A DNA stretch of 64,000 bases from a phage: the sequence record PX393110.1. One strand, 5' to 3'. The position numbers were made by a program, and so were the translations under genes. This document shows positions 2,237 through 58,925 of the stretch, one piece after another; position 1 is the first letter of the stretch; each line of letters starts with the position of its first letter. The notes below the pieces were generated by a model that saw nothing but the letters and a program-made list of their open reading frames with translations, had not been told where the DNA came from and searched no databases.

Positions 2237-2354
2237 GATTTTATCCCAAATTAGAAGAGCCGCAGCGGGAACGCCCCGCCACCCAAAAGAACGGGCTTAA
2301 AGACGGCTCATAAATCGTTTTATTTTTCATTATTTGAAAAATAAAATAATCTAC

Positions 2355-13392: not shown

Positions 13393-14184
13393 TCAATACC
13401 GTGGGTCGGTATCCTGATAATCGCGAATCAAGTCATAGACGAGCACATCCAGACGAGTAGCATCTTCACGCTTCATGCGGGTAGGTCTGTACATATGAAT
13501 ACATACACAGTGCTTAGACCATACCTTAGCAGTCTGACGTTCCGTAAGTTCTTTACGGTCGACGATGTACTTCTCGAATGCGTGATAAGAGATAGGCTTT
13601 GATACTTCGATATATTGGCACATATCGAGGAATTGCGGGTAGTCGTCAGTCAGGTAACGACTGAATACATCCTGGTAATAGGAGTAGTTAGGGAACTTAC
13701 CACCATTTTCCAGAGATAAAGCATGAGTCTCTATCTCCTTCAGCATCAGAGACATGAATGCCTGATTATTGCTGGGGGAGGTCCACATGTTGATTTCGCA
13801 GTAGTCTAACCGAGGGGAATAAACGCGTACCTGAGTCTCGTGAGGAGTGTAGGTTTCGTGAGGGCTTCGGATAAAGAGTGTATCAGCATCAACATAGGAG
13901 TAACCACGAAGATCCATCATTACCTGAATCTTGAGTCGCAGGTAATCACATACAGAGGCCATCTTAGCCTTAGTCTTCAGGATATTATACGCTTTCTCCA
14001 TGATAGGATCTCTGGCGAATAAATCCTGGATCATAATGCATCGGCACCCTTCGATAATGTTTTCAGTATTATCGATCACCAGCACATGGTCCTTAGGTCC
14101 ATATTTCTGTAAGGATTTAATGCATTCCCGAACATGGATAGGCATCTTTGGTCCTACCCAAAGCTGGAAATAATTCTGACTCAT
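13393..14184 (-). CDS. Putative glycosyltransferase (GT32 / Gly_transf_sug-like)
   Basis: SVCDYLRLKIQVMMDLRGYSYVDADTLF matches the D-x-x-R-x-x-x-L...G-x-Y-x-D-x-D signature of GT32-type sugar transferases; RBS AGAGGTAA. Confidence 0.5.
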   Translation of the reverse strand: MSQNYFQLWVGPKMPIHVRECIKSLQKYGPKDHVLVIDNTENIIEGCRCIMIQDLFARDPIMEKAYNILKTKAKMASVCDYLRLKIQVMMDLRGYSYVDADTLFIRSPHETYTPHETQVRVYSPRLDYCEINMWTSPSNNQAFMSLMLKEIETHALSLENGGKFPNYSYYQDVFSRYLTDDYPQFLDMCQYIEVSKPISYHAFEKYIVDRKELTERQTAKVWSKHCVCIHMYRPTRMKREDATRLDVLVYDLIRDYQDTDPRY

Positions 14185-14817
14185 AGTTACCTCTATGTTA
14201 TTTATTTTAAACTGGATAGGGACCTAATAGAGTAAATTAGTAAATAAATACTTATTAGTTACCTCTTACCTATGCTAAGGGAAGCGTACTCGAGGAGTAC
14301 AGAGGCTTAGCGAAAGAGCGGAGTAACACCTTTATCCCAATTAGTCAAAGTAGAGAGCGAAGGAGTCGCGCCCGCTTGAGGCGGCGCGACCTCCGCTTCA
14401 CCAATCCTACCGGATGAGCGCCTGCGACCACCCGAGCCTACCCCTGCATCACTCTCTAAAGCCACTTCGGGCTTTACCTCGTTCTGCTACGCGATACGCA
14501 GGCGATAGCTACACTAAGTCCCCTGGAGATGGCTAGTAAGCATCCGCTACCAGTCATATCCAACCTAACATTGGCGAAGCCAGGGACTAGGCACTCCGCG
14601 CCAATAAGCTACATTAGGATTTATGTCCGTATTCGAAGATAGGCCGATCGGTGAGACTATGCATTCATCTCTGCTCAACCAGGAAGCGCCGATTAGGGTA
14701 AATACCCAAACTACCTTCTTAATGTCACTCCTCCCAGACCGCTTCGGGACTTAGCTTAAGTCATATCCGAATAATCTGGCATCTACGACGGACCGTAGTG
14801 TATGGAGCGTACTGCAA

Positions 14818-14849
14818 TTTAACAGCCTTTCGATTCATCAAAAGAGCGT
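14818..14849 (-). promoter_or_regulatory. Conserved promoter-like motif, copy 5
   Basis: TTTAACAGCCTTTCGATTCATCAAAAGAGCG; faces about 600 nt of ORF-free sequence before the glycosyltransferase gene. Confidence 0.5.
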
Positions 14850-14978
14850 AATTAGGGACCCGATTATTCCACTTAGCTGCCATCCGTTCGGGTCAACACA
14901 GATCGTTCCAGGTCTTAGGCATCATACCAGACCGTTTCAGTACACTCGGATTATTAGTTCCCGGTGACCATTTAAAGA

Positions 14979-15054
14979 TGGTGGCCCATACTGGTTTCGA
15001 ACCAGTGACCAATCGATTATGAGTCGACTGCTCTCACCACTGAGCTAATGGGCC
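14979..15054 (-). tRNA. tRNA-Met (anticodon CAT; elongator-type, or Ile2 if lysidinylated), CCA encoded
   Basis: Hand-folded cloverleaf: acceptor GGCCCAT/ATGGGCC, D-stem GCTC/GAGC, anticodon stem GTCGA/TCGAT, loop CTCATAA, T-stem ACTGG/CCAGT, T-loop TTCGAAA, 3' ACCA; 76 nt. Confidence 0.85.
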
Positions 15055-15199
15055 GAACTGGTCGGGACCGTGGCCCACACTAGAGGATTTGCCAAACTCC
15101 CCATTATCATGGCCTAAGCCATCCAGACAGCCGTGACTACCCTGCTCCGGTACATGTGATAATGGGGACGTATCCAAAAATGTGGAGATCCCGTTAAGG

Positions 15200-15276
15200 T
15201 GGTACTCCCTACAGGATTCGAACCTGTGACCAATAGCTTAGAAGGCTACTGCTCTATCCAGCTGAGCTAAGGGAGC
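15200..15276 (-). tRNA. tRNA-Arg (anticodon TCT), CCA encoded
   Basis: Hand-folded cloverleaf: acceptor GCTCCCT/AGGGAGT (G1-U72), D-stem GCTC/GAGC, anticodon stem GTAGC/GCTAT, loop CTTCTAA, T-stem ACAGG/CCTGT, T-loop TTCGAAT; 77 nt. Confidence 0.85.
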
Positions 15277-15457
15277 TTATTAATTCTTCTACCTGCTTAA
15301 CAGATTTATTCATGCCTGTTCCGTGACACTCCCCGCAGACCCAAGTCCGACAGAAGATATCACCAGGCTCAGCATCGTCACACTCTCCTAAACCTCCACA
15401 TTCTGGACATTTAGCTTCATTAACAATACTTCTTAGCTTATGAAAAGTAGTTTCCAT
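15254..15457 (-). CDS. Small zinc-ribbon protein (CPEC...CGEC)
   Basis: 67 aa with two CxxC pairs; RBS GGAGGA before the ATG at 15457; the 3' end overlaps the tRNA-Arg 5' end by 23 nt. Confidence 0.45.
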   Translation of the reverse strand: METTFHKLRSIVNEAKCPECGGLGECDDAEPGDIFCRTWVCGECHGTGMNKSVKQVEELISSLSSAG

Positions 15458-15473
15458 AAATCCTCCATTTTAG

Positions 15474-15541
15474 GATGACCTCTTAGCTTACCATCGCGAA
15501 AAGCTACATGGAGTGTAGTTAACGTGAACTAAGAGGTCATC
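15474..15541 (-). promoter_or_regulatory. Structured element closed by a 13-bp perfect inverted repeat
   Basis: GATGACCTCTTAG (15474-15486) pairs with CTAAGAGGTCATC (15529-15541); the enclosed 42 nt hold two further hairpins (TAGCTT/AAGCTA and CTACA/TGTAG). Lies directly 5' of the RBS of the zinc-ribbon gene. Confidence 0.4.
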
Positions 15542-58884: not shown

Positions 58885-58890
58885 ATAAAT

Positions 58891-58925
58891 GGGACTCACT
58901 CGTGATAGAGTGAGTCCCATTTTTG
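58891..58925. terminator. Bidirectional rho-independent terminator at the convergent junction
   Basis: 11-bp stem GGGACTCACTC / GAGTGAGTCCC with a 7-nt loop; TTTTT on the plus side and an A-rich run on the other side. Confidence 0.7.

What the first reader, a model, noticed from the sequence alone, without database searches (positions are those of the whole stretch)
15055..15199. Structured spacer between tRNA-Met and tRNA-Arg with an 11-bp long-range stem
CCCCATTATCA (15101-15111) is the perfect reverse complement of TGATAATGGGG (15157-15167), enclosing 45 nt that contain a TGGC-CTAA-GCCA hairpin. The element is tRNA-sized but lacks a canonical T-loop. It could be a degenerate tRNA, a processing signal for the polycistronic tRNA precursor, or a small stable RNA.
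Basis: seen in the sequence. Interest (0 to 1): 0.45.

Follow-up and report, generated by a model that had tools for sequence, protein, structure and literature searches.

The report
New tRNA-like-ended phage small RNA gene
The whole 145-base gap between two phage tRNA genes encodes a conserved, roughly 135-base folded RNA with a tRNA-like end, found as a movable cassette in the tRNA clusters of three unrelated phage families and absent from the RNA family catalogue, with unknown function.

Summary
No shuffle of 2000 reached 12 bp. It is only one helix (P4) of a larger element.

The tRNAs are on the minus strand. Between them, window 15193..15059 encodes a 135-nt RNA. It has a 7-bp terminal stem followed by A-CCA (a tRNA-like acceptor end), a long interrupted rod, and a three-way junction carrying a nearly invariant hairpin.

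Homologues exist in three unrelated phage lineages:
- the window's own group (IME392, EP_H11);
- one Kuttervirus lineage (SenALZ1/selz/SeTs-2);
- one T4-like phage (Yersinia phage JC221).

All sit inside tRNA clusters. In JC221 the element is a precise insertion relative to RB16. Of 47 base pairs, 22 show compensatory changes and 95.7% of cells are paired; G·U pairs favour the tRNA-sense strand. There is no Rfam hit, no tRNA cloverleaf, no conserved ORF, and no homology to T4 RNAC/RNAD.

Best reading: a co-transcribed RNA excised like a tRNA, a new family of the T4 'species 1/2' kind. Its function is unknown and its expression has not been shown.

The parts
15200..15276 (-). tRNA-Arg (anticodon UCU), upstream neighbour in the transcript; ends in an encoded CCA
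   Evidence: ARAGORN; Rfam RF00005, 70.5 bits
15194..15199 (-). 5' linker CCUUAA between the CCA of tRNA-Arg and the element; the inferred RNase P cut lies at its 3' edge
   Evidence: Sequence. The cleavage itself is inferred, not shown.
15059..15193 (-). The element: a 135-nt structured RNA with helices P1-P6 and a three-way junction
   Evidence: MFE -56.6 kcal/mol, z = -3.42, 0/200 shuffles as good. Covariance models R1/R2 score 158.5/152.7 bits. 47 pairs, 22 with compensatory changes.
15187..15193 (-). P1 5' strand, CGGGAUC (acceptor-like stem)
   Evidence: Pairs with 15063-15069. 5 of 7 pairs change on both sides among lineages and 100% of cells are paired.
15063..15069 (-). P1 3' strand, GGUCCCG
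15059..15062 (-). Single-stranded ACCA tail (discriminator A plus CCA), like a tRNA 3' end
   Evidence: ACCA follows P1 in the window, IME392, EP_H11 and SenALZ1. JC221 has UACA instead.
15179..15186 (-). P2 5' strand, UCCACAUU; pairs with 15074-15081. A 4-nt bulge (CCAC, 15070-15073) separates P2 from P1 on the 3' side.
   Evidence: helix 2: 92.5% paired, 3 pairs with compensatory change
15158..15171 (-). P4 5' strand (AC-G-UCCCCAUUAUC).
   Evidence: helix 4: 13 pairs, 96.9% paired, 4 compensatory
15096..15108 (-). P4 3' strand (GAUAAUGGGGAGU).
15151..15157 (-). Junction strand J4/5, ACAUGUA. CAUGUA is invariant in all five sequences.
   Evidence: Alignment A4
15123..15150 (-). P5 hairpin, CCGGAGCAGGGUAGUCACGGCUGUCUGG: the conserved 'head'. 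The sequence is nearly invariant across three phage families. The stem changes that do occur are mostly compensatory (C-G to U-A, G.U to U.G); two cells are unpaired.
15109..15122 (-). The sequence is free but the pairing is kept.
   Evidence: All 5 pairs show compensatory changes (helix 6)
15089..15095 (-). Conserved asymmetric internal loop, UUGGCAA, on the 3' side between P4 and P3. Consensus GAGU-UUG(G/A)(C)AAA.
   Evidence: Alignment A4
15055..15058 (-). 3' linker GUUC between the ACCA tail and tRNA-Met
   Evidence: Sequence
14979..15054 (-). tRNA-Met (anticodon CAU), downstream neighbour
   Evidence: ARAGORN; Rfam, 72.2 bits

Best explanation
The tRNA-Arg/tRNA-Met spacer is a gene for a structured non-coding RNA of about 135 nt, transcribed from the minus strand as part of the tRNA precursor.

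Its 5' and 3' ends pair in a 7-bp stem followed by a single-stranded A-CCA, which imitates a tRNA acceptor end. I infer that the host tRNA-maturation machinery excises it: RNase P at the 5' side of P1 using the RCCA interaction, then endonucleolytic cleavage in the short linker and exonucleolytic trimming back to CCA at the 3' side. This would release both neighbouring tRNAs and a discrete, probably stable RNA.

The body is an interrupted rod (P1-P4) ending in a three-way junction. One junction hairpin (P5) and the junction strand CAUGUA are almost invariant between unrelated phages. The other hairpin (P6) and the rod keep only their pairing. I infer that this 'head' is a specific binding surface for a factor common to enterobacterial hosts or to these phages.

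The element behaves as a self-contained cassette that is gained or lost within phage tRNA clusters.

Shown here: the structure, its conservation and covariation, the strand, the tRNA-like terminus, and the cassette-like distribution. Inferred: co-transcription, processing by RNase P and 3' trimming, stability, and the protein-binding role. The biological function is unknown.
For: (1) Homologues in three independent lineages, all co-oriented with tRNAs inside tRNA clusters:
- IME392 and EP_H11, about 91% identical;
- Kuttervirus SenALZ1/selz/SeTs-2, 76% over the core, lying between a neighbouring structured RNA (here called module B) and tRNA-Tyr;
- the T4-like Yersinia phage JC221, after tRNA-Gly. 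The model built without JC221 scores it at 70.4 bits, E = 9e-16.

(2) Covariation on the 5-sequence alignment A4. 95.7% of 235 cells are paired and 22 of 47 pairs have compensatory changes. Structures slid by 1-3 columns give 2-4 such pairs, and 0 of 500 shuffles reach the observed values.

(3) Terminal 7-bp stem plus ACCA at a conserved length of 135-138 nt in four of five sequences, although P1 differs in sequence: CGGGAUC/GGUCCCG versus GGGUUCG/CGAACCC.

(4) Strand. 22 G.U cells give 95.7% pairing on the tRNA-sense strand versus 86.4% on the opposite strand. The fold z-score is -2.76 versus -1.36.

(5) Not coding. No reading frame is open in all five sequences on either strand. EP_H11 carries +1 and +2 indels on the two strands of P4.

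(6) No sigma-70-like promoter or intrinsic terminator on the minus strand between the tRNAs.

(7) Precedent. T4 has tRNA-Arg(tct), then rnaD (119 nt), then rnaC (139 nt), both small stable RNAs. Their roles are unknown (PMC3014915; PMC9697503).

(9) Cassette behaviour. JC221 versus RB16 shows a precise insertion of about 144 nt between tRNA-Gly and the next module. Within Kuttervirus only 11 of 220 matching records carry the element.
Against: - No expression, end-mapping or stability data could be examined. Processing is inferred from sequence only.
- JC221 has UACA, not ACCA, after P1, so an encoded CCA is not universal. Post-transcriptional CCA addition, known from my own knowledge for some T4 tRNAs, would have to be invoked.
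- There is no T-arm. P1 and P2 are interrupted by a 4-5-nt bulge, so recognition by RNase P is not guaranteed.
- Only three independent lineages are known (15 of 50,697 phage records).
- The alignment used for pair counts was fitted to the model, which favours the structure.
- P1 'covariation' could partly reflect recombination at the cassette borders. In SenALZ1 the element's 3' end is identical to that of the neighbouring module (ACCCACCAAAU).
- No candidate binding partner was identified.
Confidence: 0.6

Rival explanations
1. It is purely a cis-acting spacer or 'punctuation' element. The tRNA-like end only directs RNase P and 3' processing so that the flanking tRNAs mature efficiently. The excised piece is then degraded and has no function of its own.
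For: The acceptor-like stem plus ACCA is the most clearly tRNA-related feature. The element always lies directly next to tRNAs or other CCA-ended modules. Close relatives manage with different spacers: IME392 has 470 nt and three modules between the same two tRNAs.
Against: A processing handle needs only P1 plus CCA. Here a 34-nt head (CAUGUACC.GAG.AGG.U.GU..ACGGC..UC.GG) is nearly invariant between phages of three families whose stems have diverged. The length is held at 135-141 nt. tRNAs elsewhere in these clusters sit only 5-8 nt apart without such an element.
Confidence: 0.15
2. It is a small mobile DNA element (MITE-like, or carried by homing or recombination). The terminal inverted repeats act at the DNA level and the RNA structure is incidental.
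For: The distribution is sporadic: 11 of 220 matching Ackermannviridae records and 1 of 184 matching Straboviridae records. JC221 has a precise insertion relative to RB16, flanked by the direct repeat CAAATT. In SenALZ1 the flanking repeat is ACCCACCAAAU. Homing endonuclease genes are common in these clusters: segB in T4 and an HNH gene in CBA120.
Against: The terminal repeats differ in sequence between lineages and contain G.U pairs that work only in the RNA of one strand. Internal helices P2-P6 covary. There is a single copy per genome region searched, and models R1/R2 find no second copy in the 64-kb window or in the other loci. The flanking 'repeats' are the generic CCA plus A/U-rich linker found after every module.
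Confidence: 0.07
3. It is a new self-cleaving ribozyme or a ligand-binding aptamer. The conserved three-way-junction core carries out or controls processing of the tRNA precursor.
For: Conserved unpaired nucleotides concentrate at a three-way junction and in one hairpin loop while the surrounding stems covary, which is a pattern typical of catalytic or ligand-binding cores.
Against: No match to any Rfam ribozyme or riboswitch family even at E<=10. There is only one junction strand. No downstream ORF or expression platform exists, since the next gene is a tRNA. The tRNA-like end already provides a processing route.
Confidence: 0.05
4. It is a decaying tRNA pseudogene or a tRNA with large insertions.
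For: A 7-bp acceptor stem, discriminator A and CCA are present. Related clusters do contain oversized tRNA-like RNAs that keep a T-arm: T4 rnaC, and IME392 at L001 3262-3448.
Against: There is no D-arm, anticodon arm or T-arm. ARAGORN and Rfam tRNA find nothing at E<=10. The non-tRNA architecture is conserved by compensatory change in three lineages, which is the opposite of decay.
Confidence: 0.03
5. It encodes a small protein: the 47-codon TTG ORF at 15177..15034 on the minus strand.
For: the ORF listing reports the ORF.
Against: The ORF runs into tRNA-Met. No frame is open in all five homologues on either strand, and JC221 has at least 2 stops in every sense frame. EP_H11 has frame-breaking indels placed symmetrically on the two strands of a helix.
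Confidence: 0.01

Closest known systems
Bacteriophage T4 small stable RNAs RNAC (species 1, 139 nt) and RNAD (species 2, 119 nt)
   Same: Both are encoded inside a phage tRNA cluster, co-oriented with the tRNAs, with no ORF. They are similar in size (119-139 versus 135 nt). The T4 RNAs lie directly downstream of tRNA-Arg(tct), exactly as in this window. rnaD is followed by a CCA-type end in the genome (sequence). Their function is still unknown.
   Different: There is no detectable sequence or structure homology. R1/R2 find nothing in the T4 region at E<=10, and blastn-short finds nothing. T4 rnaC keeps a canonical T-arm (CCGGGUUCGAAUCCCGG) and this element has none. In the MFE fold of rnaD the 5' end is not paired with the 3' end.
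Non-tRNA substrates of bacterial RNase P, for example the precursor of E. coli 4.5S RNA
   Same: Both are long hairpin-like RNAs whose paired 5'/3' ends plus a single-stranded 3' tail are the processing determinant. The RCCA-P15 interaction and cleavage of pre-4.5S RNA without the S-domain are documented (PMC11143913).
   Different: There is no sequence relation to SRP RNA (no Rfam hit). Cleavage of this element by RNase P is inferred, not tested.
tRNA (RF00005)
   Same: A 7-bp terminal stem, discriminator A and CCA. The element is located in a polycistronic tRNA unit.
   Different: There is no cloverleaf and no T-loop. At 135 nt it has a rod plus three-way junction instead.
Bacterial and phage Y-RNA-like RNAs (YrlA, RF02553)
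   Same: Both are tRNA-mimicking non-coding RNAs of about 100-130 nt with a long stem formed by the two ends (PMC4201824, listed).
   Different: There is no RF02553 hit on the element. In YrlA the tRNA-like part is the T/D/acceptor-like domain and the termini form the Ro-binding stem. Here the termini are the only tRNA-like part. No Rsr/Ro gene was seen near the element, though I did not search for one systematically.
Large phage-associated ncRNAs found next to tRNA genes (GOLLD, ROOL)
   Same: These are structured, non-coding, phage-borne RNAs adjacent to tRNAs (PMC12286853, listed; the tRNA adjacency is from my own knowledge).
   Different: They are 4-6 times larger and their Rfam models do not match here.

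Membership tests
tRNA (Rfam RF00005 / ARAGORN) | Cloverleaf with D-arm, anticodon arm and T-arm | tested here: not met
   ARAGORN calls only the two flanking tRNAs. cmscan at E<=10 gives no RF00005 hit in 15055-15199. The MFE and consensus folds are a rod plus three-way junction.
tRNA (Rfam RF00005 / ARAGORN) | 7-bp acceptor stem, then discriminator base, then CCA | tested here: met
   CGGGAUC/GGUCCCG plus A-CCA at 15193..15059. The same closure is found in IME392, EP_H11 and SenALZ1. JC221 has UACA instead.
tRNA (Rfam RF00005 / ARAGORN) | T-loop (GTTCRANNC) next to the 3' acceptor strand | tested here: not met
   The sequence 5' of the P1 3' strand is ...UAGUGUGGG-CCAC, with no T-loop.
T4 RNAC/RNAD (species 1/2 stable RNAs) | Non-coding gene inside a phage tRNA cluster, co-oriented with the tRNAs and downstream of tRNA-Arg(UCU) | tested here: met
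   Adjacency to tRNA-Arg holds only for the window group. SenALZ1 and JC221 have other neighbours.
T4 RNAC/RNAD (species 1/2 stable RNAs) | Sequence or structure homology to rnaC or rnaD | tested here: not met
   R1 and R2 give no hit in L004 at E<=10. blastn-short gives no hit at E<=0.01.
T4 RNAC/RNAD (species 1/2 stable RNAs) | Accumulates as a discrete stable RNA during infection | not testable with these tools
   No transcriptome data are available for this phage.
RNase P substrates | Helix formed by the 5' and 3' ends, with a 5' leader and a single-stranded 3' RCCA | tested here: met
   P1 is 100% paired in all five sequences. ACCA follows in 4 of 5. The RCCA-RPR interaction is described in PMC11143913.
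RNase P substrates | Cleavage by RNase P at the 5' end of the helix | not testable with these tools
   Requires an in vitro or in vivo assay.
YrlA / bacterial Y RNA (RF02553) | Match to the family covariance model (Ro-binding stem plus tRNA-like domain) | tested here: not met
   No RF02553 hit on the element at E<=10.
Known self-cleaving ribozyme classes in Rfam (hammerhead, twister, twister-sister, pistol, hatchet, HDV-like, hairpin) | Match to any class model | tested here: not met
   No such hit at E<=10 in window 14150-15500, nor at the E limits used in the homologous loci: E<=10 for L001 and E<=1 for L002/L003.
MITE-like mobile DNA | Multiple dispersed copies with conserved terminal inverted repeats and target-site duplications | tested here: not met
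   There is a single copy in the 64-kb window and in every locus searched. The terminal stems differ in sequence between lineages. The flanking short repeats are ambiguous.

The most novel reading that the evidence does not exclude
The element is the first recognised member of a class of horizontally exchanged, tRNA-end-mimicking RNA cassettes in phage tRNA islands. These would hijack the host tRNA-maturation machinery for their own biogenesis. Their invariant head would act in trans, for example as a decoy or inhibitor of a host tRNA-targeting defence nuclease or an RNA-processing or RNA-modifying enzyme. In that case the many other unannotated CCA-ended modules seen in Ackermannviridae and T4-like tRNA clusters, and T4 RNAC/RNAD themselves, would be functional analogues.
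Probability: 0.15. Interest if true: 0.75.

Novelty: new member of a known kind. Interest (0 to 1): 0.5.

Why it matters
Small stable RNAs in phage tRNA clusters (T4 species 1 and 2) have been known for about 50 years, and no function has been assigned to them.

This element is a new family of that kind, supported by covariation and not present in Rfam. Its anatomy is unusually clear: a tRNA-like terminus for biogenesis, plus a nearly invariant head shared by phages of three unrelated families infecting E. coli, Salmonella and Yersinia. That conservation across unrelated genomes points to a common host-side or widely shared target, and it gives a short, defined sequence to mutate or to use as bait.

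The analysis also shows that the 'empty' stretches of tRNA clusters in hundreds of Ackermannviridae and T4-like genomes are filled with similar unannotated, sometimes mis-annotated, structured modules. These appear to be shuffled between phages as cassettes.

Tried and rejected
- **Rfam.** Gathering thresholds on the whole window, and E<=10 on 14150-15500, found nothing on the element. Scans of the homologous loci (E<=10 for L001, E<=1 for the others) also found nothing.
- **Exact or degenerate core-motif scans of large collections.** Viral contigs was scanned four times: three scans gave no hit, and the fourth gave 7 hits that were chance matches with no flanking motif and no tRNAs. Metagenome contigs gave 45 hits, all chance, mostly in GC-rich coding DNA. 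Genome contigs gave no hit in the first scan and one chance hit in a MAG coding region in the second.
- **Host mimicry.** blastn of the element against 5,426 E. coli genomes at E<=10 gave no match. Complementarity shorter than about 15 nt could not be assessed this way.
- **Homology to other modules.** I tested T4 rnaC/rnaD and the other modules of these clusters (B, C, the ~190-nt module, IME392 modules 1 and 3). None is homologous.
- **Covariance-model search of other tRNA regions.** T4, CBA120, LIMEstone1, Menlow, phiEaP8, a T5-like Sugarlandvirus and RB16 contain no further copies.
- **Second CCA-ended module downstream of tRNA-Met.** A candidate at 14945..14803 was rejected because its closing stem is broken in IME392.
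- **Coding potential.** Rejected.
- **Literature.** Full-text searches found no description of this element or of structured RNAs in Kuttervirus tRNA clusters.
- **Not attempted.** A genome-wide co-occurrence analysis to find a partner protein, and a search for short complementarity to host rRNA, tRNA or sRNAs.

Full report
**The observation.** The window carries two tRNA genes, both on the minus strand: tRNA-Arg(tct) at 15276..15200 and tRNA-Met(cat) at 15054..14979. The transcribed order is therefore Arg, spacer, Met. The arms are 15098-15109 and 15157-15168, 12 bp, perfectly complementary, with 47 nt between them. The small TGGC-CTAA-GCCA hairpin lies at 15110-15121. In 2000 shuffles of the 145-nt spacer none reached 12 bp. 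Only four loci in the 64-kb window have such a repeat. The minus-strand RNA folds clearly better than its shuffles (z = -2.76 for the spacer, -3.42 for the 135-nt element). The plus strand does not (z = -1.36).

**Anatomy.** On the minus strand, after a 6-nt linker (CCUUAA), the RNA runs from 15193 to 15059 (135 nt).
- P1 is CGGGAUC/GGUCCCG, 7 bp. It is followed by single-stranded A-CCA and a 4-nt linker to tRNA-Met.
- P2 (8 bp) is separated from P1 by a 4-nt bulge on the 3' strand.
- P3 is 4 bp. Between P3 and P4 on the 3' side lies an asymmetric loop with conserved UUGGCAA.
- P4 is 13 bp.
- The three-way junction has the strand ACAUGUA, hairpin P5 (CCGGAGCAGGGUAGUCACGGCUGUCUGG) and hairpin P6 (AUGGCUUAGGCCAU).

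The terminal 7-bp stem, discriminator A and CCA are what a tRNA acceptor end looks like. Nothing else is tRNA-like. ARAGORN and the Rfam tRNA model find nothing there, even at E<=10, and no other Rfam family matches.

**Relatives.** The window belongs to a small group of E. coli phages (vB_EcoM_IME392 and EP_H11), about 92% identical over 24 kb. Both carry the element at about 91% identity. Their tRNA clusters are otherwise rearranged. In IME392 the Arg-Met spacer is 470 nt and holds two further modules, each closed by a stem.

More distant copies occur in two other phage families.
- Salmonella phages SenALZ1/selz/SeTs-2 (Kuttervirus, Ackermannviridae). The element lies between another CCA-ended module (here called module B) and tRNA-Tyr.
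- Yersinia phage JC221 (Straboviridae, T4-like). The order is tRNA-Met, tRNA-Gly, the element, another module (here called module C), then a terminator.

A covariance model built without JC221 detects its copy at 70.4 bits, E = 9e-16. In total 15 of 50,697 phage records carry the element. Motif scans of IMG/VR, JGI metagenomes and GTDB genomes gave only chance matches. E. coli genomes contain nothing similar.

**Evidence for an RNA structure under selection.** On the five-sequence alignment A4, 95.7% of 235 pair cells are standard pairs. 22 of the 47 pairs show changes on both sides that keep the pair. Structures slid by 1-3 columns give 2-4 such pairs and 34-48% pairing. None of 500 column shuffles reaches the observed values.
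- P1: 5 of 7 pairs compensatory, 100% paired.
- P6: all 5 pairs compensatory.
- P5: almost invariant in sequence, but its stem changes are mostly compensatory (C-G to U-A, and G.U to U.G in JC221); two cells are unpaired.

The 22 G.U cells give 95.7% pairing on the tRNA-sense strand against 86.4% on the other strand. No reading frame is open in all five copies on either strand. EP_H11 has +1 and +2 insertions placed on the two strands of P4.

Caveats: there are only three independent lineages. The alignment was fitted to the model. The sequence of P1 may partly track the neighbouring module, because in SenALZ1 the element and module B share the 3' end ACCCACCAAAU.

**Conserved sequence.** Between the three families the stems have diverged, but a 34-nt block is nearly invariant: AUC(R)CAUGUACC.GAG.AGG.U.GU..ACGGC..UC.GG. 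It covers the junction strand and P5. The ACG-UC and GAGU-UUG..AAA segments that flank P4 are also conserved. This goes beyond what a mere spacer or processing handle requires.

**Cassette behaviour.** In Pseudotevenvirus RB16, tRNA-Gly is followed directly by module C. JC221 has the element inserted precisely between them (about 144 nt), with CAAATT on both sides. Module C occurs in 183 other T4-like records without the element. In Ackermannviridae, module B occurs in about 220 records, but only the 11 SenALZ1-lineage records also have the element. R1/R2 find no copy in CBA120, LIMEstone1 or Menlow. The element is therefore gained or lost as a unit within tRNA clusters of unrelated phages infecting Enterobacterales.

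**Most likely mechanism.** No promoter-like or terminator-like site lies on the minus strand between the tRNAs, so co-transcription with them is the simplest assumption. Bacterial RNase P RNA pairs with the 3' RCCA of its substrates and also cleaves a non-tRNA hairpin substrate, pre-4.5S RNA (PMC11143913). P1 plus ACCA provides exactly these determinants. I infer RNase P cleavage at the 5' edge of P1. At the 3' side I infer endonucleolytic cleavage in the short linker after CCA, followed by exonucleolytic trimming back to CCA, as for E. coli polycistronic tRNAs (this last point is from my own knowledge). The linker is A/U-rich in the relatives (CCA-AAUU, CCA-AAU) and GUUC in the window. The product would be a 135-nt RNA with a tRNA-like, nuclease-resistant end. 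Its conserved head presumably binds a specific partner.

None of these steps was observed. JC221's UACA tail shows that an encoded CCA is dispensable in at least one lineage. The absence of a T-arm leaves the efficiency of RNase P recognition open.

**Comparison with known systems.** The closest functional analogue is the pair of T4 small stable RNAs. T4 has tRNA-Arg(tct), then rnaD (119 nt), then rnaC (139 nt), and their roles are still unknown. The element is not a homologue of either: R1/R2 and blastn-short find nothing. rnaC keeps a T-arm that this element lacks. It is not a tRNA, a YrlA-type Y RNA, an SRP RNA or a known ribozyme. I file it as a new family within a known kind: tRNA-cluster-encoded phage small RNAs that are presumably matured like tRNAs.

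**Rivals.**
- Pure processing spacer, 0.15. It is weakened by the invariant head.
- MITE-like DNA element, 0.07. It fits the sporadic distribution and flanking repeats. It does not fit the strand-specific G.U pairs, the internal covariation or the single copy number.
- New ribozyme or aptamer, 0.05. It is not excluded, but nothing specific supports it.
- Decayed tRNA, 0.03.
- Small ORF, 0.01.

**Verdict.** The feature is a real, conserved, structured RNA gene that is not in Rfam. It is moderately interesting on its own. It is more interesting as an entry point to the many unannotated structured modules in phage tRNA clusters.

Noticed in passing
window 14186-14978 (minus strand), especially 14270-14880: About 790 nt without a credible ORF lie between tRNA-Met and the next gene (start codon at 14184). 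GC is 0.50-0.54 against about 0.42 in the flanks. The predicted fold is dense: -218.9 kcal/mol for 611 nt, z = -2.4. The central roughly 600 nt appear more conserved in IME392/EP_H11 than the 92% genome average, judged by eye from alignment A6. The first ~100 nt contain three small hairpins with compensatory changes. There is no Rfam hit, and only the two close relatives have it. It is possibly a large non-coding RNA.
   Followed up: partly
window 15474-15541: A 13-bp perfect inverted repeat (GATGACCTCTTAG...CTAAGAGGTCATC) closes a 68-nt hairpin just upstream of the tRNA cluster. It is conserved in IME392 (L001 4080-4143) and partly in EP_H11. It is one of only four 12-bp-or-longer perfect inverted repeats in the window.
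   Followed up: no
window 15254-15457 (minus strand): A 67-aa ORF matches PHROG 6060, 'anti-termination protein Q-like' (E = 1.6e-18). It lies between the hairpin above and tRNA-Arg, and its 3' end overlaps tRNA-Arg by about 23 nt. It is absent from IME392 at this position.
   Followed up: no
L001 3262-3448 (IME392) and L002 about 2145-2323 (EP_H11), minus strand: A tRNA-like RNA of about 180 nt sits just downstream of tRNA-Met and is absent from the window. It has a canonical T-arm (UAGGGUUCGAUUCCCUA), a GCCAC/GUGGC closing stem and ACCA, and a second T-arm-like hairpin near its 5' end. ARAGORN and Rfam do not call it. It is reminiscent of T4 rnaC.
   Followed up: no
L003 2603-2718 (SenALZ1); L057 1501-1614 (CBA120); L058, L059: 'Module B' is an A-rich RNA of about 115 nt with a terminal stem (GGGUGUG/...CACCC) plus ACCA. 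It is conserved at 78-87% in about 220 Ackermannviridae records (Kuttervirus, Taipeivirus, Limestonevirus and others). It is unannotated or overlapped by 'hypothetical protein' calls, and there is no Rfam hit.
   Followed up: partly
L060 2619-2760 (JC221); L064 4002-4131 (RB16): 'Module C' is a conserved sequence of about 135 nt after the last tRNA in 183 T4-like records (Pseudotevenvirus RB16/RB43, Klebsiella phage Matisse group, and Cronobacter, Citrobacter and Enterobacter phages). It is often unannotated or covered by dubious CDS or tRNA labels. It has no similarity to T4 rnaC/rnaD.
   Followed up: partly
L002 2767-3004 (EP_H11); L003 2162-2379 (SenALZ1); L057 1141-1350 (CBA120): A module of about 200 nt is shared between the window's phage group (EP_H11 only) and Kuttervirus, at 84.7% over 72 nt with conserved blocks such as CCAGAAAUGGU...GUAAAGUUCCAGGAGAUCGAACCAGAAGGCACUGG. 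It is a second example of a structured cassette exchanged between the two phage groups. The first ~60 nt after tRNA-Arg in IME392 also match kutterviruses at 81%.
   Followed up: no
L057 1640-1756 and 1362-1435 (CBA120); L058 1358-1431; L059 1431-1504: There are further uncalled tRNA-like pieces in Ackermannviridae clusters. One is a ~115-nt RNA with a T-arm (GGGGUUUGAAUCCCC) and a GUCGGGU/CCCGAC closure. Others are 74-nt units closed by a 7-bp stem plus NCCA but lacking a recognisable T-loop.
   Followed up: no
L001 3532-3636 (IME392 module 1) versus Erwinia phage phiEaP8 (L062 8001-8106): The ~100-nt module next to tRNA-Met in IME392/EP_H11 is closed by a 12-13-bp stem and has no CCA. It is 83% identical to a sequence immediately after tRNA-Tyr in a Schitoviridae phage. 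This is a fourth phage family sharing modules.
   Followed up: no
window 2318-2346 and 58887-58922: These are the two other perfect inverted repeats of 12 bp or more with short loops in the window. They are probably terminators but were not examined.
   Followed up: no
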